Sequence record: ON528731
Length of the DNA stretch: 64,000 nucleotides
Direction: 5' to 3' (one strand)
Source of the DNA: Shigella phage ESh21
Part shown: positions 4,198 through 40,937 of the stretch, piece by piece
Position numbering within the stretch: the first letter of the stretch is position 1
How the letters are laid out: each line of letters begins with the position of its first letter
The notes under the pieces: model-generated
Databases searched by the model: none
Told to the model about the DNA's origin: nothing
The model's input: only the letters and a program-made list of their open reading frames with translations
Program-made: the position numbers and the translations under genes

Positions 4198-4710
4198 ATG
4201 AAATCAGTCGAAAGCACCTTTGAAGTTCAAAAAGAAAAATTTACTATCATCTTTGAAGCAATGAATGTTTATGAGCCTTCCCATTGTGTGGATAACTGGC
4301 AATTCACTGATGAGCATAAAGGAGGAGTTACAATCAAAGTTAAAAACTCAGAACGTAACGGCTACAAATATGCAATTCCTATGCACTATGCGCTTTCACA
4401 GCTTGCCAGTGATTACGCAAAACAGGGAAGGGATAACCCATCATTAGCCGCTTACAAGAGCTTACAAGATGAACTAGAAAGGGATTTAGGGGCTAATAGC
4501 TACATTCTATACGCCTCAGTAGTTGACGCTGAAGGCAACACGGTTTTAAATAGTTTTTCCCTTGCGTATGGTTTTGATTGGTGCTATCTTGACGGGGAAG
4601 ATTTAGATTCACGCTTAAAAGAGGAAGTAAGCAATTCAGGTGCTGAAGAGGAAGTTTTAGAGCGCTTGGAAGATTTAAAAGATAGTGTGATGAATATCTT
4701 TAATATCTAA
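4198..4710 (+). CDS. Hypothetical early protein
   Basis: Conserved leader upstream. Confidence 0.55.
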   Translation: MKSVESTFEVQKEKFTIIFEAMNVYEPSHCVDNWQFTDEHKGGVTIKVKNSERNGYKYAIPMHYALSQLASDYAKQGRDNPSLAAYKSLQDELERDLGANSYILYASVVDAEGNTVLNSFSLAYGFDWCYLDGEDLDSRLKEEVSNSGAEEEVLERLEDLKDSVMNIFNI

Positions 4711-7997: not shown

Positions 7998-8525
7998 ATG
8001 AATAAGTTCACAGCAATCAATACTATCCGCTCAAAAGATGTAATGAAAAAACCTGTAAAAGACACTTTCGAATTTACTCTTAAAGATAAGTTGTTTGCAG
8101 TTATCACGAAAGGGGAAGATAAAAAATATTACATTCATCGCCCAAATCAGCAAATGCTAACCACTAACAACTTTATGAAGGCTGTGGCAATGATTCTGCC
8201 TGATTTTATGGCTATCGTTGCAGAGATTCACGAAATGGCTATAAAAGCCACTAAAAACGAGCTAAACCGCTATAAAATGGCTTATGAGCGTTCTATCAAG
8301 TCTCATAATCTTTTTATTGCAATCCACCATACGGGGATGTATGCTATGGGGACGGGTAACCAACAATACCCGCTCTATGATGTAGAAAATATCTATACAG
8401 GTGATTATCCAACAACTAAATTTAAGATTACGCTGGGGGAGGCATTAACTAGGGGGATTCGACTTTACGAACAATCTCTAAAAAACTTAGAAAATTCACT
8501 TGACGAAACGTTAGCGAATCTTTAA
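7998..8525 (+). CDS. Hypothetical early protein
   Basis: Conserved leader upstream. Confidence 0.55.
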   Translation: MNKFTAINTIRSKDVMKKPVKDTFEFTLKDKLFAVITKGEDKKYYIHRPNQQMLTTNNFMKAVAMILPDFMAIVAEIHEMAIKATKNELNRYKMAYERSIKSHNLFIAIHHTGMYAMGTGNQQYPLYDVENIYTGDYPTTKFKITLGEALTRGIRLYEQSLKNLENSLDETLANL

Positions 8526-25079: not shown

Positions 25080-25110
25080 CTTCTAAGGGTTCTTACGAGA
25101 GTCCTTAAAT

Positions 25111-25187
25111 GTGGCCTTATCATAAATGGATAATGACCCATGCTGTGAACATGGTCTATACGGGTTCGATTCCCGTAGGTCACCCCA
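25111..25187 (+). tRNA. tRNA-His (anticodon GUG)
   Basis: Anticodon stem CCATG/CATGG, loop CTGTGAA, discriminator C; no encoded G-1. Confidence 0.65.
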
Positions 25188-25193
25188 ATTCAA

Positions 25194-25270
25194 TAGCTCA
25201 ATTAGCTTATATGGTTAAAGCGCGTGTCTGAAAAACATGAGAACAGGGTTCAAATCCCGATGGGCTACCA
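25194..25270 (+). tRNA. tRNA-Phe (anticodon GAA)
   Basis: Loop CTGAAAA; T-stem weak; 3' boundary uncertain. Confidence 0.5.
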
Positions 25271-25285
25271 ATTTATAGGTGCATA

Positions 25286-26020
25286 ATGAAAGAGATGACA
25301 GGACAAGGTAAAGAGATTTTCAGTCTCCTTAAATCCGGTAACGGGTTCTCTAACCCTCTTATTACTGGTGCAGCAGTTCTTGGTGGTACAGTTGCTGCTT
25401 CTCAGTCATTAGTAACTTCTATTGGTTCTGTATCAGACCCAGCTACCCAGCAAATTCTTATTGCTGCTGGCTTGACAACTGCCTTACTAAGCAGCTTTAC
25501 AACAAGCCTTGGTAGCACCACTTCAACGACAACTACTTTAACTGACTATGGACAGAAGTCTGTAGATGAGTTTTCACAACGTATGCAAGTAGCTAAAGGT
25601 TACTCTAACGTTATGGGAGCAGCAGGTGAACAAGTCGGTTGTACACCGTTTAGTGGAATCATGGGAGTTGCTACAGAGTACGGTAACAAAGCTATGGATT
25701 TGATTAATACATCCATAGACGCTGTAAATGGCGTTCTAAGCGATTTACAAGATGCGATTGATAAAGGACTAGACACTATCTCTGAACTCGCTACACAAGC
25801 TGTTACAGCGATTAATGAGGGTATGGCAAAGATTACTGCCTACGCTAATGAAGTGGCTCAGATGATTGCAGATGAAGCAGCCCTGATTGCTGACTACCTT
25901 AAAACGAATATTAACGGTTTTCTTGCTAATGTCTTACCAGATTGGTTTGATGATGCTTGTAAAACTGGTGTGATTGATACAATCGCAACTCCAGAGATGA
26001 AAGATGCTCTAAACAAATAA
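25286..26020 (+). CDS. Hypothetical protein with Ala/Gly/Ser/Thr-rich N-terminal half
   Basis: 244-aa ORF between tRNAs. Confidence 0.55.
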   Translation: MKEMTGQGKEIFSLLKSGNGFSNPLITGAAVLGGTVAASQSLVTSIGSVSDPATQQILIAAGLTTALLSSFTTSLGSTTSTTTTLTDYGQKSVDEFSQRMQVAKGYSNVMGAAGEQVGCTPFSGIMGVATEYGNKAMDLINTSIDAVNGVLSDLQDAIDKGLDTISELATQAVTAINEGMAKITAYANEVAQMIADEAALIADYLKTNINGFLANVLPDWFDDACKTGVIDTIATPEMKDALNK

Positions 26021-26023
26021 TTT

Positions 26024-26116
26024 GGAAGATTAACCCTAAAAGGTAAGGGAGCAGTTTGCTAAACTGCCAGTAACCGAGAAATCGGCGTACCAGTTCAAGT
26101 CTGGTATCTTCCTCCA
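26024..26116 (+). tRNA. tRNA-Ser (anticodon GCU), long variable arm
   Basis: Acceptor GGAAGAT/ATCTTCC perfect, anticodon stem GCAGT/ACTGC, 93 nt. Confidence 0.7.
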
Positions 26117-26123
26117 AATTAAT

Positions 26124-26200
26124 GTGTCGGTGGCAGAAATGGATTATGCGCCTGTCTGCAAAACAGGTATATAAGGGTTCAAGTCCCTTCCGATACTCCA
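26124..26200 (+). tRNA. tRNA-Cys (anticodon GCA)
   Basis: Anticodon stem CCTGT/ACAGG, loop CTGCAAA, T-arm AAGGG-TTCAAGT-CCCTT. Confidence 0.65.
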
Positions 26201-32331: not shown

Positions 32332-33438
32332 ATGGCATTAACTAATTCTGAAAAAAGCAGATTTTTCCTTGCTGACCTGACTGGTGAAGTCCAGTCTATC
32401 CCAAATACTTACGGTTATATTTCCGGTTTGGGACTGTTCCGTTCTGCTCCACAGACTCAAACTACTTTCCTGATGGACTTGACAGATTGGGATATCAGCT
32501 TGCTTGACGCTGTAGACCGCACTAGCCGTAAAGCTGAAACAAGTGCTCCTGAACGTGTTAAGCAGATTAGCTTCCCAATGATGTACTTCAAGGAAGTTGA
32601 AAGCATCACTCCTGACGAAATTCAGGGTGTACGTCAGCCAGGCACTGCAAATGAACTGACTACTGAAGCAGTTGTACGTGCTAAGAAGCTGATGAAGATT
32701 CGTACCAAGTTCGATATTACTCGTGAGTTCTTGTTCATGCAAGCCCTGAAGGGTAAAGTAATTGACGCTAACGGTGTTCTGTACGCAGACCTGTACAAGC
32801 AGTTCGATGTAACTAAGAAGACTATCTACTTCGACCTTGACAACCCGAACTCTGATATCGATGCGCACATTGAAGACCTGCGTATGCACATGGAAGACGA
32901 AGCTAAGACAGGTACTGTAATTAACGGTGAAGAAATTCACATCGTTGTTGACAGAACTTTCTTCAGCAAACTTACCAAGCATCCGAAGATTCGTGACGCA
33001 TATCTTGCACAGCAGACTCCTCTTGCTTGGCAGCAGATTACTGGTTCTCTAAGAACTGGTGGTTCTGATGGTGTTCAGGCTCATATGAACACATTCTACT
33101 ACGGTGGTGTTAAGTTTGTCCAGTACAACGGTAAGTTCAAAGACAAGCGTAACAAGACTCACACTCTGGTGAGCATTGACGGTGTGTCCGATGTTAATAT
33201 CGGTGTAGGTCACGCTTTCCCTAACGTTGCAATGCTGGGTGAAGCAAACAACATCTTTGAAGTGGCTTATGCTCCATGTCCTAAGATGGGTTACGCAAAC
33301 ACTCTTGGTCAGGAACTGTACGTATTCGAATATGAAAAAGACCGTGACGAAGGTATTGACTTCGAAGCTCACTCTTACATGCTTCCATACTGCACACGTC
33401 CTCAGTTACTGGTTGACGTTCGTTCAGATGCTGCTTAA
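32332..33438 (+). CDS. Major capsid protein, lambda gpE-like (putative)
   Basis: 368-aa ORF after protease-scaffold with GGAG SD; C-terminal pattern resembles lambda E. Confidence 0.65.
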   Translation: MALTNSEKSRFFLADLTGEVQSIPNTYGYISGLGLFRSAPQTQTTFLMDLTDWDISLLDAVDRTSRKAETSAPERVKQISFPMMYFKEVESITPDEIQGVRQPGTANELTTEAVVRAKKLMKIRTKFDITREFLFMQALKGKVIDANGVLYADLYKQFDVTKKTIYFDLDNPNSDIDAHIEDLRMHMEDEAKTGTVINGEEIHIVVDRTFFSKLTKHPKIRDAYLAQQTPLAWQQITGSLRTGGSDGVQAHMNTFYYGGVKFVQYNGKFKDKRNKTHTLVSIDGVSDVNIGVGHAFPNVAMLGEANNIFEVAYAPCPKMGYANTLGQELYVFEYEKDRDEGIDFEAHSYMLPYCTRPQLLVDVRSDAA

Positions 33439-35363: not shown

Positions 35364-36716
35364 ATGTGGAATCCAATTGTTAATGTAGATATTACATTGA
35401 ACACAGCAGGGACTACAAGAGAAGGTTTTGGTTTACCATTATTCCTTGCTTCAACAGATAACTTTGAAGAAAGAATCCGTGGTTATACTTCATTAACAGA
35501 AGTGGCTGAAGACTTTGATGAAAGTACTGCTGCATATAAAGCTGCAAAACAGCTATGGAGCCAAACTCCAAAAGTAACTCAACTGTATATTGGTAGAAGA
35601 ACTATGCAATATACAGTTTCTATTCCTGATACAGTTGCTGAAGGAAGTGAATATTCATTAACAGTTGCTATTGGTGGTGGTGTTTCTCAGCCATTCCAAT
35701 ACACTGCAAAAGAAAGTGACACAGCACTTATTGTCTTGAGTGAGTTTAAATCACAGATTGAAGCAAGCCCAACAATTAAAAATAGTGTGAATGTTAGTGT
35801 AACAGGTACTGGTGCTTCTGCGACGATGATTATTACTAAAGCTGGTGATAATGATTTCGTAAAAGTAACATCTATCACGGCTACAACATCTATTGCAGCT
35901 ACAACTGCTGACACAGCTTCCGCTGCTCTGGCGTCCATCGAAACTTATTCAACAGATTGGTACTTCATCTCAGCAGAAGACAGAACTCAACAGTTTGTCT
36001 TGGCAATGGCTTCAGAGATTCAGGCTCGTAAGAAGATTTTCTTCACAGCTAATGCTGACGTTAAAGCTTTGCAAGGAACTGAATTAACCTCTGCAACCGA
36101 TGTTCCGGCACAGTTAGCTAAAAATAGGTACACTCGTACAGTTTGCTTGTGGCATCACACATCTGAGTATGACTACCCAGAAATGGCTTACATCGCATAT
36201 GGAGCACCATATGATGCAGGTTCAATTGCTTGGGGTAATGCTCAATTAACTGGTGTTGCAGCATCTCTACAACCTGCTAACCGTAGACCACTGACAAGTA
36301 TTCAGAAGTCAGCTTTGGATACTCGTAACTGTAACTTCATTGACCTTGATGGTGGAGTTCCTGTAGTGCGTAGGGGTATCACTTCTGGTGGTGAATGGAT
36401 TGATATTGTACGTGGTGTTGATTGGCTTGAATCTGATTTGAAAACATCTCTAAGAGACTTGCTAATTAACCAGAAGGGTGGTAAGATTACTTATGATGAT
36501 ACTGGTATTACCCGTATTCGTCAAGTCATTGAAACCTCTCTACAAAGAGCAGTTAACAGAAACTTCCTGTCATCTTACACAGTTAATGTTCCTAAAGCCT
36601 CTCAAGTTGCTTTGGCAGATAAGAAAGCTCGTATCCTGAAAGATGTTACCTTCGCAGGTATCTTAGCAGGGGCTATCTTGGATGTTGACTTGAAAGGTAC
36701 AGTGGCTTACGAATAA
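35364..36716 (+). CDS. Tail sheath protein (putative)
   Basis: 450-aa ORF immediately upstream of tube, chaperone pair and tape measure. Confidence 0.55.
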   Translation: MWNPIVNVDITLNTAGTTREGFGLPLFLASTDNFEERIRGYTSLTEVAEDFDESTAAYKAAKQLWSQTPKVTQLYIGRRTMQYTVSIPDTVAEGSEYSLTVAIGGGVSQPFQYTAKESDTALIVLSEFKSQIEASPTIKNSVNVSVTGTGASATMIITKAGDNDFVKVTSITATTSIAATTADTASAALASIETYSTDWYFISAEDRTQQFVLAMASEIQARKKIFFTANADVKALQGTELTSATDVPAQLAKNRYTRTVCLWHHTSEYDYPEMAYIAYGAPYDAGSIAWGNAQLTGVAASLQPANRRPLTSIQKSALDTRNCNFIDLDGGVPVVRRGITSGGEWIDIVRGVDWLESDLKTSLRDLLINQKGGKITYDDTGITRIRQVIETSLQRAVNRNFLSSYTVNVPKASQVALADKKARILKDVTFAGILAGAILDVDLKGTVAYE

Positions 36717-36731
36717 TAGAGGTAAATTGGA

Positions 36732-37178
36732 ATGGCTATGTATCAGCAATATTCCCCTAAAGACGTTGTATGTAGCTGGAACGGCATTGCTATCGAAGGC
36801 TTTGCCCCAGACTCATTCTTGCGTCTACAGAGAACATCACCACTTGTTACACCAGTTGTAGGTGCAGGTGGTCAAGTAGCTCTGACAAGAAATGCAGATA
36901 AGACAGGTACTATTGAGATTGAGCTAATGCAGACTTCTCTCTCTAACCAGATGCTTTCTGCAATTCAAGCTAAACAAGATGACATGGAACTTGAAGAAGA
37001 TATCTCATCTAACTTTGTAATTTATGACCCATCTGGTTCAGTTCTGGCAACAGGTATCAATGCTTGGTTGCAAGAGCTTCCACAGATTGAATTAGGTCGT
37101 GACCAGAACTCGAAAACTTGGATTTTCGGTTGTGAGAAGTTAGATTACACTTCAACAATCCCTGCATCAAGCGTTTAA
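36732..37178 (+). CDS. Tail tube protein (putative)
   Basis: 148-aa ORF between sheath and chaperones. Confidence 0.5.
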   Translation: MAMYQQYSPKDVVCSWNGIAIEGFAPDSFLRLQRTSPLVTPVVGAGGQVALTRNADKTGTIEIELMQTSLSNQMLSAIQAKQDDMELEEDISSNFVIYDPSGSVLATGINAWLQELPQIELGRDQNSKTWIFGCEKLDYTSTIPASSV

Positions 37179-37254
37179 CAAATCCTAATAAGGGGGAGAC
37201 TGTAAAAGGTCTTCCCCTTTTGTGTTTTTATAGCATAACTTTTAAGGAATCACA

Positions 37255-37662
37255 ATGAAGACTGAAACAAAACATATTAATGGTAAGAAGGTGACGATTA
37301 TCCTTCTTGGTGCAAGAGATGGTATCAAAATTTCTATGAAGCTTGGTAAGGTCGTTGTACCCACCTTTGCTCAGATGATTACCAGTCTTGCTGGTAAAGA
37401 TGAGAATCCAGAAGCTCCTAAAGTTCCTTTCAAAGAACTGGTAGAAGCTTGCTTTGACAGAATTGATGAGTTAGATATTGACTCAATGGCAGAATTACTA
37501 TTTCAGGGGGCAACTGTTGATGACTTCCCACTGAAAATTGATAGTTACTTCCAAGCAAACTACGGTGAATTTATTGACTTCTTAGCCTTTGCTTTGGAGG
37601 CAAACTTCGGAAGTTTTTTCGAGGCAAGCATTTTCAAAAGCCTAACTTCTCAGGAAGCTTAA
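37255..37662 (+). CDS. Tail assembly chaperone (short form)
   Basis: Immediately upstream of tape measure; contains slippery heptamer near its 3' end. Confidence 0.55.
   Translation: MKTETKHINGKKVTIILLGARDGIKISMKLGKVVVPTFAQMITSLAGKDENPEAPKVPFKELVEACFDRIDELDIDSMAELLFQGATVDDFPLKIDSYFQANYGEFIDFLAFALEANFGSFFEASIFKSLTSQEA
37614..37620 (+). other. Candidate -1 programmed ribosomal frameshift site T_TTT_TTC
   Basis: X_XXY_YYZ heptamer in frame of 37255..37662; the -1 frame is open through 37898. Confidence 0.5.
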
Positions 37663-37670
37663 AGTATGTT

Positions 37671-37898
37671 ATGCAGACCCCGCTGACTGACGGGGCTGTA
37701 GAATCAACTTATGAAGAAGCAGATGAGATGAAATTTGTGCTTGCCATTTATGGAATGGAAGGGTGTAAAGAAACACTCGACCAACTTTTCTCAATGACTT
37801 TCGTTGACCTATTATCTCTTCGTCAATATCTGGAAATCCAGAAGTCATACAAAGAAGAAATGGCCTATAACGAACTCAGAAAGGCAGGTAAAATTTAA
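37671..37898 (+). CDS. Tail assembly chaperone extension (likely expressed as frameshift fusion)
   Basis: ORF in -1 frame relative to 37255..37662, ending at the tape measure start. Confidence 0.45.
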   Translation: MQTPLTDGAVESTYEEADEMKFVLAIYGMEGCKETLDQLFSMTFVDLLSLRQYLEIQKSYKEEMAYNELRKAGKI

Positions 37899-40132
37899 TG
37901 GCACAGTATACAGTTGATAGTTTTATTGTGGAACTTGGATTCAGTGAAAAGGTTGTAAAAGGTTTACAGAGAGTTGAAAAGATGGCTATGCAATCTGCTC
38001 AACGCATCGAAAGAAACATTAACAAAGCCTTTGACGTGAAGCCTAATAAAAGTTCTCAAGAAGCTCTAAACAGACTTGTTAAAAACGCTCAGACTGCTTC
38101 GGGCAGAATCAATAAATCCCTAAACAACGCTCTCAATTTAGATTCCCAAGGTGTTAAATCTCTACGTAAATTAGAGACACAAGGGAAGAAGACAGCTAAA
38201 GAAATTAATAAGGCTCTCAGACAAGCTATGAACGTTGACGGTAAAGTTAATATTCGTGGTGGTGCTGGTAGAGGTCGTGGAAATACCGTTCCCCCAGTGG
38301 GTGGAGGTTCACCAAGAGTTAGGCCTGATATTGCTCAGAGACAAATGGAAAGGATGTTTAATAACAACTTCTACTCTGGCCTTACTCGTCGTCTTGAAAC
38401 TATTGGTGGACAGGGTAACCAAATGGCTGCTTCTTTCAGAGGCAACTTGCAAGGAATCTATAACAAGTATAAAGGGAGTGGTAAGGTTGGTGAATATGAG
38501 ATGGAAGTTAAAAAACTCATTGACACAACCAAACGTTGGGTTATTGCAGAAAATGCTAGAATCAAGGCAGTCAAAGAATCAGCTTGGCTACAGGATAGAG
38601 CAAACTCTTCACTAAGACAGTTAATTGGTGGTTTTGTTTCCGCCTATGCTTTGTTAGAATTAGCTCAGAAGACAATTGATGCAGGTGTTAAAAGACAGTC
38701 TGCACAGTTAGCCTCAACAGCTATCTTTGGAGCAGATACACAACAAGCTAGAATGTTCGCTGCTACGTTCGCTCACCAGATTGGTCAGAACTACACAGAC
38801 ACTATGAAGCAGTACTCAAACTTCGCTGCTGGTGCTCAACCTGCACTTGGTTTTGAAGGTACTCAGGAGTTCTATAAGAATGCTGCAATGTTCTCTCGTA
38901 TTAGAGGGGCATCTGATGAAGACTTGAAAGGTATCATGGTTGCTTTCCAGCAAATGGCATCTAAGGGTAAAGTTCAGGCTGAAGAACTCCGTGGTCAGTT
39001 AGGTGACCGTTTGGCAGGTGCTGTTCAGTTGTTCTCTGATGCTATCGGTAAGACTCCACAAGAACTTGATAAGTTGATGCAGGATGGTAAGCTACTTGCT
39101 AAAGACGTTCTTCCAAAAGTCTCTGAGAAGATGAGAGAATTGGTTGACGCAGCAGGTGGTATGAATGCTGTATCTAAGCAGACTGCTACATCAATGGGTC
39201 AAGCAAAAGCTATGTGGGATAACACCTTAGTGGCTCTCTTCAACAACTCTAGTGATGGTATCTCACAGTTGTCTAACTCCGTTGCAATGTTCTTGCAAGG
39301 TTCCCTTGGGACTACTGAAGCTCTTGGTACTGGTATTGACTACCTGTTAAAAGGTGCTAGTAACCTTCTGGACTTCATCACAGATATCATGTATCGAATC
39401 TCTGGACTGTACTACCTAGCAATGGGATATTACAGTGATTTAGGTGCAAGTCAACAGAAACTTATCAAGGACTCTGCTGAGTTAGTTGCAACGTTTACTG
39501 CTATCGGTGTTGCAATTGCAACTATCACGAAAGTTGCTAAAATCTTCGGTGGTACTGTAGCATTTGTCAAGAGTATTTTTGAAGAAGGTATTTTGGCTAA
39601 GATTGCTCAAAAGCTTGGTCTGACAACAGCAGCAGAGACAGTAGCTACAACGGCTGGTGTAACAGGAACTAGAATGGCTCTTGGTGTAGGTGGTTCTGCA
39701 CTTATGCTTTCAAGTTCGGCTGACCCAAATGCTGGGAAGAGATTTAGTGATGTTAATACACCAAACCCTTTCAACGAAGCTATTGCTGGGGTTACCAATG
39801 CTAAACGTCCGATGTTCTTTGACCAAAATGGACAGTTGAGGTTCGCACAATATACCACTGACACTTCTGGAAATATTCAGAGAGTGGATAATGGATTGTC
39901 AAATTGGGATATCATCATGAACAACCTGTCTGAGTCTTTAAACAACTTTGCAACTAAGTTTAACCAGACACCAATGATGATGAGTCCATCTGGATTCCCA
40001 TTACAAACTAAGCAGACGCTTAATGTTTCCTTTAATCTGGATGGTAAGCAGATTGCTAATAAAATGGTGGATATCACTAATAAGAGTCAGGAAGATATTC
40101 TGTTAAGTTCTAGCTACCCAGAGGATGAATAA
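37898..40132 (+). CDS. Tail tape measure protein
   Basis: 744-aa protein after chaperone pair; long Ala/Gly-rich segments. Confidence 0.75.
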
Positions 40133-40937
40133 TGTTATGGGATAACAACATGCAAATCAAGTATTCTGGAAAGGATGGTATTTATTTCCATCTGAGGGAT
40201 AATGTAGATGCTTTCCTTACACTATCTGCAACAGAAAACATGGAGTATGACTCACCTATGTTGGTGACAACTCAATCGGTTCAAAGTGGTCAAACAGTCA
40301 CAGATAACGTACAGCGTTCTCCAAAGACTATTTCCATTAGTGGTGTTGTTGTAGTGGGCTACGAAGGTAGCCTTCTATTAACTCGTCAAGGTCAACTTGT
40401 AGAGAACTTCATTAGTACAGTTGAAACGTGGAGAGACCAGAAACAGATTATTTCAATTGTCTGTAAAGATGGTATCAAGATTGATGATTCTATTATTACA
40501 CAGTTTAAAGCTTCGAAGGAACATACAATTGCTAATGGTCTTCGTATTCAGATGACCTTTCAAGAAATTAACTTTAAAGCTGTAGTTGGGACAACTGATG
40601 TTTCTGCTGCAACTGGTAAAACAGCGACGACAAAAGATGATGGAGTTACTTCTAAGAAGAATACAGGTAACACTACAACATCTATTGGAAATGGTAAACT
40701 GAACTGTCAACTATTATATGACTTGCGAGCTAACGGAGTAAGACCACTTTCTAGTGCAGAACAGAAAGCTTTAGGTAATTGTGGTCTTTCTGCAAACACT
40801 AGTAAAGGTGTTACATCATTTAGTGATAAAGCTAACGCTGATGCTGCAAGTGCAATTAGGCAGTCTCAACTTACTGCTGGTGAAGGTAATGCACTTAAGA
40901 CTCATTCTGTAAACCCTAACAAAAAAGGAACTTACTA

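What the first reader, a model, noticed from the sequence alone, without database searches (positions are those of the whole stretch)
37614..37898. Candidate -1 programmed frameshift in the tail assembly chaperone
The heptamer T_TTT_TTC lies 14 codons before the stop of 37255..37662, and the -1 frame is open from there to the tape measure start at 37898. This is the position and geometry of the conserved chaperone frameshift of long-tailed phages and predicts a ~215-aa fusion product.
Basis: partly seen in the sequence, partly recalled or inferred. Interest (0 to 1): 0.5.

Follow-up and report, generated by a model that had tools for sequence, protein, structure and literature searches.

The report
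Tail chaperone -1 frameshift site, confirmed
This is the usual programmed ribosome slip that lets a long-tailed phage make a short and a long version of its tail-assembly chaperone; the evidence for it is strong, but the same site is already annotated in sister phages, so it is ordinary.

Summary
T_TTT_TTC lies at 37614-37620 in X_XXY_YYZ phase within the 135-aa chaperone ORF 37255-37662. The -1 frame is open from 37578 to TAA at 37896-37898, which overlaps the tape measure ATG. A slip would give a 214-aa, 24.2-kDa fusion.

The window is a Mooglevirus (FelixO1-like myophage), 99% identical to Shigella phage ESh22. Moogle, Michonne and Meda already annotate a ribosomal-slippage join at the same heptamer, and two genome announcements mention it.

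Comparative support is strong:
- The heptamer, its phase and the open -1 frame are kept in all 38 close relatives.
- They are also kept in 38 of 42 loci found in a second scan, which reach down to 25% protein identity and span GC 0.35-0.70.
- The -1 extension stays at 71-112 codons while the 0-frame tail varies from 7 to 48.
- Many lineages have no start codon for the downstream ORF.

No 3' stimulatory structure was found. Instead, a Shine-Dalgarno-like GGAGG at 37596-37600, 13 nt upstream, is conserved across the family and resembles the dnaX 5' stimulator.

One open point: published Sf14 virion proteomics detected the downstream ORF product but not the upstream one. No experiment has demonstrated the fusion in this clade.

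Verdict: supported, already known, low interest.

The parts
37244..37248 (+). Shine-Dalgarno sequence (AAGGA) of the chaperone gene, 6 nt upstream of its ATG
   Evidence: Read directly from the sequence. Moogle and Michonne annotate a ribosome binding site at the homologous position.
37255..37662 (+). Tail assembly chaperone ORF ('G'), 135 aa, 15.0 kDa; the product of standard 0-frame decoding
   Evidence: Pfam PF21822 Phage_TAC_15 at 75.5 bits against a cutoff of 22. phrog_1613 tail assembly chaperone, E 5.5e-49.
37596..37600 (+). Internal Shine-Dalgarno-like GGAGG, 13 nt upstream of the heptamer; a candidate 5' frameshift stimulator (inferred)
   Evidence: GGAGG, AGGAG, GAGG or (once) AGGA ends 11-13 nt upstream of the heptamer in 34 of 38 distinct sequence variants across the family. 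Given Leu-Glu-Ala, GGAGG needs a Leu NNG codon plus GAG. These have usage 0.30 and 0.29 in this phage, so about 9% is expected. 5' SD stimulators are established for dnaX and many IS elements (review PMC5009743).
37614..37620 (+). Slippery heptamer T_TTT_TTC, where tRNA-Phe sits in both the P and A sites; the site of the -1 shift
   Evidence: Phase checked. Invariant in all 38 related loci, which give 35 distinct sequences. Present at the homologous position in Arno18, H101 and 38 of the 42 loci of the second IMG/VR scan. The class H_HH.U_UU.Y is among the most efficient -1 motifs measured in E. coli (PMC4066793).
37620..37662 (+). Dual-coding overlap: the 0-frame C-terminal tail of G (EASIFKSLTSQEA) and the -1-frame linker of GT (RGKHFQKPNFSGSL)
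   Evidence: Variability is equal and low at all three codon positions, 0.107/0.101/0.105. Third-position variability is zero across 37612-37637. This 41-nt stretch is the only part that blastn can still align between the window and Erwinia phages.
37620..37898 (+). -1 frame extension ('T' part), 92 codons plus stop. With residues 1-122 of G it forms the 214-aa, 24.2-kDa GT fusion
   Evidence: Coding signature at codon positions 1/2/3 of 0.148/0.109/0.291. phrog_4963, E 3.3e-51. The length from the heptamer is conserved at 71-112 codons, median 92, across 43 distinct family members.
37671..37898 (+). The 75-aa ORF as gene callers annotate it when the frameshift is ignored. Its ATG lies 9 nt after the G stop, AGGA lies 15 nt upstream, and the ATG is partly inside a hairpin
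   Evidence: ESh22 annotates it as a separate hypothetical protein. The hairpin is shown. No equivalent start codon exists in Kolesnikvirus, L035, L029 or most distant relatives.
37898..40132 (+). Tape measure protein gene, the presumed client of G and GT. Its ATG overlaps the -1 frame stop (TAATG)
   Evidence: phrog_4036 at E 0, and Pfam TMP_3.

Best explanation
This is a programmed -1 ribosomal frameshift of the conserved tail-assembly-chaperone type (lambda G/GT, P2 E/E+E').

Most ribosomes translating the chaperone gene (37255-37662) terminate at TAA 37660 and make the 15-kDa G protein. A minority slip back one nucleotide when tRNA-Phe occupies UUU (P site) and UUC (A site) of U_UUU_UUC at 37614-37620. 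Both tRNAs re-pair with UUU UUU. Decoding continues in the -1 frame (CGA GGC AAG ...), passes the G stop, and ends at TAA 37896-37898. This gives a 214-aa, 24.2-kDa GT fusion.

The slip is probably helped by pairing of the ribosome's anti-Shine-Dalgarno sequence with GGAGG at 37596-37600, 13 nt upstream. No 3' RNA structure appears to be involved.

By analogy with lambda, G and the G part of GT would coat the tape measure protein, and the T part would recruit the tail tube protein. The frameshift rate would then fix the G:GT ratio needed for tail assembly.

Shown here: the anatomy, the family membership, and the comparative conservation of the site, its phase, the open frame and the SD-like element. 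Inferred: that slippage actually occurs, its efficiency, the role of the SD-like element, and the protein functions.
For: 1. Anatomy. The heptamer is in X_XXY_YYZ phase, the -1 frame is open to the tape measure start, and the gene order is sheath, tube, chaperone, T, tape measure.

2. Orthologous annotation. Moogle, Michonne (note 'ribosomal slippage (47149)', which falls inside the heptamer) and Meda carry joined CDS features at the same heptamer. The Moogle and Mijalis genome announcements mention the frameshift.

3. Close relatives. The heptamer, its phase and the open -1 frame are kept in 38 of 38 related loci from five Ounavirinae lineages at 44-97% protein identity.

4. Distant relatives. 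The same holds in Pectobacterium phage Arno18 and Pseudoalteromonas phage H101 at 27% identity. Of the 42 loci from the second IMG/VR scan (three are close Ounavirinae relatives, 39 have 25-49% identity; locus GC 0.35-0.70), 38 carry T_TTT_TTN. One more has G_GGT_TTT, and three keep only a U_UUU tetramer.

5. ORF geometry. The -1 extension measured from the heptamer is 71-112 codons (median 92), while the 0-frame tail varies from 7 to 48 codons. In most lineages the first possible start codon in the -1 frame lies 30-68 codons after the slip site, and Kolesnikvirus has none before codon 55. The T part therefore cannot be made on its own.

6. The T region has a coding signature in the -1 frame. 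Third-position variability drops to zero at 37612-37637.

7. The slippery spelling of Phe-Phe is used 0 of 11 times elsewhere in the window.

8. H_HH.U_UU.Y heptamers are among the most efficient -1 motifs in E. coli (PMC4066793).

9. An SD-like element lies 11-13 nt upstream in 34 of 38 variants, against about 9% expected from codon usage.

10. The T ORF product was detected by mass spectrometry in Sf14, which is 89% identical in DNA and has the same heptamer.
Against: No experiment has shown the fusion protein or measured frameshifting in this phage or any Ounavirinae. The published mentions are annotation by homology.

There is no stimulatory structure within 45 nt downstream: -6.8 kcal/mol, z = 0.05.

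The SD-like element is missing in Kolesnikvirus, L035 and Yersinia phage P778, which still keep the heptamer. It is therefore not essential.

In this clade the T ORF has its own ATG 9 nt after the G stop, so some independent translation by reinitiation cannot be excluded.

The Sf14 particle proteomics listed the T ORF as detected but the G ORF as not detected. A pure GT fusion does not predict that result.

The second IMG/VR scan used the protein motif A[LVM][EK][AKE]NFx[SG]F as bait. The amino-acid motif is therefore guaranteed in those hits, although the codon spelling and the second Phe are not.
Confidence: 0.88

Rival explanations
1. There is no frameshift. The downstream ORF 37671-37898 is an independent 75-aa gene translated from its own ATG, for example by termination-reinitiation of ribosomes that stop at TAA 37660-37662. 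The heptamer is conserved only because it encodes a conserved Ser-Phe-Phe.
For: An in-frame ATG lies 9 nt after the G stop here, and 2 nt after it in Felixounavirus and Suspvirus. Many GenBank records annotate two separate genes. Sf14 particle proteomics detected the T ORF product but not the G ORF product.
Against: Kolesnikvirus, L035, L029 and most distant family members have no start codon near the G stop. The first one lies 30-68 codons after the slip site, yet the -1 frame stays open and coding from the heptamer. In some lineages more than half of T lies inside the overlap with G. The nearest SD-like AGGA is 15 nt from the ATG, and the ATG is partly buried in a hairpin of about -17 kcal/mol. 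The slippery spelling of Phe-Phe is kept family-wide, even at GC 0.62-0.70, but is used 0 of 11 times elsewhere in the window.
Confidence: 0.06
2. The fusion is made by transcriptional slippage. RNA polymerase inserts one extra U in the T6 run, and standard translation of that mRNA gives the same Ser-Phe-Phe-Arg fusion.
For: A homopolymeric T6 run is present (T7 in H101 and several IMG/VR relatives). The protein product would be identical to the ribosomal one (read from the sequence).
Against: Bacterial RNA polymerase slippage is described on runs of about 9 A or T (review PMC5009743); 6-7 is short. The strict conservation of the run's phase relative to the reading frame (X_XXY_YYZ) is expected for tRNA re-pairing and is irrelevant to polymerase slippage. 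Three relatives keep only T_TTT_ATC, a four-T run that could still support tRNA slippage. The conserved SD-like element 11-13 nt upstream makes sense only for a ribosomal mechanism.
Confidence: 0.04
3. The heptamer is a chance occurrence, and the open -1 frame has no function beyond holding a separate small gene.
For: About 0.085 in-phase heptamers are expected by chance in a 28-codon overlap. No 3' structure was found.
Against: The conservation of site, phase and open frame extends to relatives with 25-27% protein identity and across GC 0.35-0.70. Third-position variability is zero at the site.
Confidence: 0.02

Closest known systems
Orthologous annotated frameshifts in Ounavirinae: Citrobacter phages Moogle (CPT_Moogle67/68), Michonne (CPT_Michonne70/71, 'ribosomal slippage') and Mijalis, and Salmonella phage Meda (Meda_064/065)
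   Same: Same genes, the same T_TTT_TTC heptamer in the same phase, the same GGAGG 13 nt upstream, and the same overlap of the -1 stop with the tape measure start. DNA identity is 80-89%.
   Different: The 0-frame tail differs by 1-3 codons, and the first ATG in the -1 frame sits at a different position. The nearest record to this window (ESh22, 99% identical) and many others do not annotate the join.
Phage lambda gpG/gpGT tail assembly chaperone frameshift (Levin 1993; Xu, Hendrix and Duda 2004, 2013, 2014, as summarised in PMC5009743)
   Same: Two overlapping ORFs between the tail tube gene and the tape measure gene. A -1 shift occurs on a heptamer near the end of the first ORF, giving a short abundant product and a rare C-terminally extended one. 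No strong 3' structure is present.
   Different: Lambda is a siphovirus and uses G_GGA_AAG with tRNA-Lys (established knowledge, named). Here a myovirus uses U_UUU_UUC with tRNA-Phe. The proteins belong to a different sequence family (Phage_TAC_15). An upstream SD-like element is conserved here.
P2 gpE/gpE+E' and other contractile-tail phage chaperone frameshifts
   Same: The same arrangement in a contractile-tail phage, placed between the tube and tape measure genes. The review states that P2-like phages frameshift 2-3 fold more efficiently than lambda.
   Different: No detectable sequence similarity was tested or found here. The slip site and its context differ.
E. coli dnaX -1 frameshift cassette
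   Same: A 5' Shine-Dalgarno-like element upstream of the heptamer. The spacing is 10 nt in dnaX (from memory) and 11-13 nt here.
   Different: dnaX also has a 3' stem-loop, uses A_AAA_AAG, and shifts about 50% of ribosomes to make a shorter product. Here there is no 3' hairpin within 45 nt, and the shifted product is the longer one.

Membership tests
Conserved tail-assembly-chaperone -1 frameshift (lambda G/GT type, Xu et al. 2004) | Two ORFs located between the major tail (tube) gene and the tape measure gene | tested here: met
   Sheath 35364-36716 (phrog_205), tube 36732-37178 (phrog_280, KPP10_Orf10), G 37255-37662, T 37671-37898, tape measure 37898-40132.
Conserved tail-assembly-chaperone -1 frameshift (lambda G/GT type, Xu et al. 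2004) | The second ORF is in the -1 frame relative to the first and overlaps its 3' end | tested here: met
   The -1 frame is open from 37578 to 37898, with an 85-nt overlap.
Conserved tail-assembly-chaperone -1 frameshift (lambda G/GT type, Xu et al. 2004) | An X_XXY_YYZ slippery heptamer, in phase, inside the overlap | tested here: met
   T_TTT_TTC at 37614-37620, phase 2. It belongs to an efficient motif class in E. coli.
Conserved tail-assembly-chaperone -1 frameshift (lambda G/GT type, Xu et al. 2004) | The site and frame arrangement are conserved among relatives despite sequence divergence | tested here: met
   Kept in 38 of 38 close loci, in Arno18 and H101, and in 38 of the 42 loci of the second IMG/VR scan.
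Conserved tail-assembly-chaperone -1 frameshift (lambda G/GT type, Xu et al. 2004) | The second ORF has no start of its own and is expressed only as a fusion | tested here: inconclusive
   This window has an ATG at 37671 in a poor context. Kolesnikvirus, L035, L029 and most distant relatives lack any nearby start codon.
Conserved tail-assembly-chaperone -1 frameshift (lambda G/GT type, Xu et al. 2004) | The fusion protein is demonstrated, and the G:GT ratio is required for tail assembly | not testable with these tools
   The only indirect evidence is that the T ORF product was detected by mass spectrometry in Sf14 particles, without junction peptides being searched.
Pfam PF21822 Phage_TAC_15 | Score above the curated gathering threshold | tested here: met
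   75.5 bits against a cutoff of 22, covering residues 9-125 of 135. The slip site at residues 121-122 therefore lies inside the domain's last conserved segment.
dnaX/IS-type 5' SD-stimulated -1 frameshift | A Shine-Dalgarno-like sequence roughly 10-14 nt upstream of the heptamer | tested here: met
   GGAGG at 37596-37600 with a 13-nt spacing, conserved in 34 of 38 variants.
dnaX/IS-type 5' SD-stimulated -1 frameshift | A 3' stem-loop or pseudoknot 5-9 nt downstream | tested here: not met
   37621-37665 folds at -6.8 kcal/mol with z = 0.05. The only strong hairpin starts 52 nt downstream and is clade-specific.
Transcriptional slippage recoding | A homopolymeric run of about 9 or more A or T | tested here: not met
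   The run is T6. The requirement is taken from the review.

The most novel reading that the evidence does not exclude
In Mooglevirus-type phages the T segment may not be only a transient assembly factor made as a GT fusion. It might also exist free of G, either by reinitiation at ATG 37671 just after the G stop or by cleavage of GT, and it might stay associated with the finished particle. The basis is the Sf14 particle proteomics, which detected the 75-aa T ORF but not the G ORF. That would depart from the lambda model, in which neither G nor GT is present in virions.
Probability: 0.1. Interest if true: 0.45.

Novelty: already known. Interest (0 to 1): 0.17.

Why it matters
The practical value is mainly for annotation. 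The nearest public record (ESh22) and many other FelixO1-like genomes list two unrelated 'hypothetical proteins', or leave a 236-nt gap, where a single recoded gene should be joined at T_TTT_TTC.

The comparative survey adds three modest points:
- The whole Phage_TAC_15 family keeps a U-rich heptamer inside its conserved NFxSFF motif, even in genomes with 62-70% GC.
- That heptamer is usually paired with an SD-like element 11-13 nt upstream, and there is no 3' structure. This gives a compact, easily testable natural cassette for SD-stimulated -1 frameshifting on tRNA-Phe.
- The published Sf14 proteomics data could be re-searched at once to confirm or challenge the fusion.

Tried and rejected
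- 3' stimulatory structure. Folding 37621-37665, 37621-37720 and 37580-37720 gave nothing better than shuffled sequence near the site. The hairpin at 37672-37698 is too far away (52 nt), lies beyond the 0-frame stop, and is absent from Kolesnikvirus, P778 and L035. It was rejected as a stimulator.

- The 20 nt after the heptamer as an RNA element. This stretch (CGARGCAAGCWTTTTCAAAA) is invariant within Ounavirinae. It is not conserved at the nucleotide level in Arno18, H101 or the IMG/VR relatives, while the 0-frame peptide (E-x-S-x-IF-K/Q) partly is. Dual coding explains it better.

- Sequence matches. No solved structure matched GT and no NCBIfam model matched G or T.

- Rfam found only tRNAs in the window.

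- The second in-phase TTTTTTC lies in a minus-strand ORF at 32338-32982. That ORF sits wholly inside the + strand ORF 32332-33438 and was dismissed as spurious.

- The Sf14 supplementary files hold no peptide-level data.

- Structure prediction was not run. The fusion is not a direct translation of the window, and the relatives' sequences are not admissible as input.

Full report
**What is there.** The window is a FelixO1-like myophage of the genus Mooglevirus (Ounavirinae). The stretch 36700-40200 is 99.1% identical to Shigella phage ESh22 and 87-89% identical to Sf14, Moogle and Michonne.

The local gene order on the + strand is:
- tail sheath, 35364-36716 (phrog_205, DUF3383);
- tail tube, 36732-37178 (phrog_280, KPP10_Orf10);
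- a terminator-like hairpin, 37190-37219;
- a 135-aa ORF, 37255-37662. It is a Pfam Phage_TAC_15 member (75.5 bits, cutoff 22) and matches phrog_1613 'tail assembly chaperone';
- a 75-aa ORF, 37671-37898 (phrog_4963 'tail assembly chaperone');
- the 744-aa tape measure protein, 37898-40132.

**Checking the observation.**
- TTTTTTC occupies 37614-37620, and its first T is the third base of a 0-frame codon. The reading is AG-T TTT TTC, the X_XXY_YYZ phase.
- Thirteen sense codons and then TAA (37660-37662) follow in frame 0.
- The -1 frame is open from 37578 to TAA at 37896-37898, which shares an A with the tape measure ATG.
- A slip gives a 214-aa, 24.2-kDa protein, against 15.0 kDa for the unshifted product.

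On its own the heptamer is only mildly improbable: in-phase X_XXY_YYZ motifs occur at 0.0031 per codon in this window's long ORFs, so about 0.085 are expected in the 28-codon overlap. However, none of the 11 other Phe-Phe dipeptides in long + strand ORFs uses the slippery NNT TTT TTY spelling.

**It is already annotated in sister phages.**
- Moogle, Michonne and Meda carry two-piece CDS joins for a 'tape measure chaperone'.
- Michonne's note gives the slippage coordinate, which maps inside the same heptamer.
- The Moogle and Mijalis genome announcements mention the frameshift, citing Xu, Hendrix and Duda 2004.
- The closest record (ESh22), as well as Sf14, EcSzw-2, phiEa21-4 and SPARTY, do not join the ORFs. 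The last two leave the T region unannotated.

**Comparative evidence, close relatives.**
- All 38 related loci (35 distinct sequences) contain AGTTTTTTCGA exactly once, in the same phase, with the -1 frame open to the tape measure start. They come from Mooglevirus, Felixounavirus, Suspvirus, Kolesnikvirus, Yersinia phage P778 and an unclassified IMG/VR contig.
- Between the window and the Erwinia phages (44% protein identity), blastn aligns only 41 nt, at 37603-37643, centred on the heptamer.
- In a codon alignment, third-position variability averages 0.30 but is zero across 37612-37637. This is the deepest trough in the gene.
- The T region read in the -1 frame has a coding signature: variability 0.148/0.109/0.291 at codon positions 1/2/3. 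The overlap has equal low values at all three positions, as expected for dual coding.
- Kolesnikvirus, L035 and L029 have no ATG, GTG or TTG in the -1 frame for 36-55 codons after the slip site.

**Comparative evidence, distant relatives.**
- Pectobacterium phage Arno18 has T_TTT_TTC, and Pseudoalteromonas phage H101 (27% identity, 132-kb genome) has T_TTT_TTT. Both lie at the homologous NFxSFF motif with an open -1 frame.
- A second IMG/VR scan, using a profile of eight chaperones, returned 69 loci. I analysed loci L071-L112: three are close Ounavirinae relatives, and 39 have 25-49% identity, with locus GC from 0.35 to 0.70.
- Of these 42 loci, 38 have T_TTT_TTN at exactly the same offset. 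One has G_GGT_TTT three nucleotides upstream. Three retain only a U_UUU tetramer (T_TTT_ATC).
- Across 43 distinct T peptides, the -1 extension measured from the heptamer is 71-112 codons (median 92). The 0-frame tail ranges from 7 to 48 codons.
- In several lineages more than half of T lies within the overlap, and the first possible start codon is 30-68 codons after the slip site. This pattern fits translation entering the -1 frame at the heptamer and fits little else.
- Caveat: the scan's bait was the amino-acid motif just before the site. The motif is therefore guaranteed in the hits, but the codon spelling is not.

**Stimulatory elements.**
- The 45 nt downstream fold no better than shuffles: -6.8 kcal/mol, z = 0.05.
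- The only strong hairpin (37672-37698) begins 52 nt after the heptamer, beyond the 0-frame stop, and is missing from three lineages.
- Upstream, GGAGG at 37596-37600 lies 13 nt before the heptamer. GGAGG, AGGAG, GAGG or (once) AGGA ends 11-13 nt upstream in 34 of 38 distinct variants across the whole family.
- These variants include many AT-rich genomes, although in this phage GAG is only 29% of Glu codons and Leu NNG codons are 30%.
- 5' Shine-Dalgarno stimulators are established for dnaX and many IS elements (PMC5009743). The spacing here is close to the 10 nt of dnaX (from memory).
- Kolesnikvirus, L035 and P778 lack the element yet keep the heptamer. It is best regarded as an enhancer. 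Its role is inferred, not shown.
- H_HH.U_UU.Y heptamers are among the most efficient -1 motifs measured in E. coli, and most heptamers shift detectably without any stimulator (PMC4066793).

**Mechanism.**
- Ribosomes translating G reach U_UUU_UUC with tRNA-Phe in both the P and A sites. A minority slip back one base, and both tRNAs re-pair with UUU.
- They then read CGA GGC AAG ..., bypass the G stop, and finish at the TAA that overlaps the tape measure ATG.
- By analogy with lambda (review), G and GT would bind the tape measure protein and the T part would recruit the tube protein. The frameshift rate would set the G:GT ratio.
- These functional steps are inferred from the lambda model and were not tested here.

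**Rivals.**
- Independent translation of the 75-aa ORF is possible in this clade, because the ATG lies 9 nt after the G stop. The context is poor: AGGA is 15 nt upstream and the ATG lies partly inside a hairpin. It cannot explain the relatives that have no start codon.
- Transcriptional slippage on a T6 run would give the same protein. The run is short, and polymerase slippage would not require the conserved phase or the SD-like element.
- Chance is excluded by the conservation.

**One unexplained item.**
- The Sf14 structure paper (PMC11821841, Table 1) lists gp42 as detected by mass spectrometry of particles and gp41 as not detected.
- In the Sf14 records, gp41 is the G ORF and gp42 is the 75-aa T ORF. 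Sf14 has the same heptamer.
- This shows that the -1 ORF is translated in an 89%-identical phage. A GT fusion should also yield G peptides, and both parts have good tryptic peptides.
- The search database held the two ORFs separately, and no peptide-level data are in the held supplements. Re-searching those spectra with the fused sequence is the cheapest decisive test.

**Verdict.** It is an already known feature of this phage group and a textbook kind of recoding, so interest is low. The added value is the family-wide conservation of the U-rich heptamer together with an upstream SD-like element, and the Sf14 proteomics lead.

Noticed in passing
37672-37698: A hairpin (CAG-A-CCCCG ... CGGGG-CTG, about -17 kcal/mol with flanks) begins one base into the ATG of the 75-aa ORF. 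Suspvirus and L009 carry a two-sided change (CCCCG/CGGGG to CCCCA/TGGGG) that keeps the pairing through two synonymous substitutions. Felixounavirus has a longer outer stem and no ATG at this position. The hairpin is absent from Kolesnikvirus, P778 and L035. It could mask the internal start codon. Its function is unknown.
   Followed up: partly
Shigella phage Sf14 (L039/L040 855-1492); window 37255-37898: Published Sf14 particle proteomics (PMC11821841, Table 1) lists the 75-aa T ORF (gp42) as detected and the G ORF (gp41) as not detected. A simple GT fusion that is absent from virions does not predict this.
   Followed up: partly
21465-26200: A cluster of 25 tRNA genes by ARAGORN; Rfam adds one more tRNA match at 21549-21620. 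The cluster includes tRNA-Phe(GAA) at 25195-25270, with an A36-A37-A38 anticodon loop. That tRNA decodes both slip-site codons. It also includes tRNA-Arg(ACG) at 24519-24595, which reads the first -1 frame codon, CGA. There is no tRNA-Glu for the competing 0-frame codon GAG. Whether phage tRNAs tune the frameshift rate is untested.
   Followed up: no
37190-37219: A terminator-like hairpin (12 pairs followed by a T-rich tail) lies between the tail tube gene and the chaperone gene. Michonne and Meda annotate a terminator at the same place. It would lower transcription of the chaperone and tape measure genes relative to the sheath and tube genes.
   Followed up: partly
37896-37900: The -1 frame stop and the tape measure start overlap as TAATG, so only ribosomes in the -1 frame terminate at the tape measure start codon. 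Stop and start are overlapping or within a few nucleotides in most relatives. Tape measure translation could be partly coupled to GT synthesis (speculative).
   Followed up: no
L004 970-1205 (phiEa21-4); L043 1012-1247 (SPARTY); L003 (ESh22): Several public records leave the T region unannotated, or call it a separate hypothetical protein, instead of joining it to the chaperone gene. The annotations could be corrected.
   Followed up: yes
L090, L092, L095-L112 (IMG/VR contigs, locus GC 0.61-0.70): GC-rich members of the same chaperone family still carry a T6-T7 run at the NFxSFF motif. In L104, L108 and L112 it is reduced to T_TTT_ATC, and L111 has G_GGT_TTT. These may be natural variants with a different shift mechanism or efficiency.
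   Followed up: partly
4674, 5360, 8480 (+ strand): Other in-phase X_XXY_YYZ heptamers lie within 16 codons of the stop of ORFs of at least 120 aa: T_TTA_AAA at 4674 and 5360, and A_AAA_AAC at 8480. They were not examined for open -1 frames or conservation, and the number found is in line with chance.
   Followed up: no
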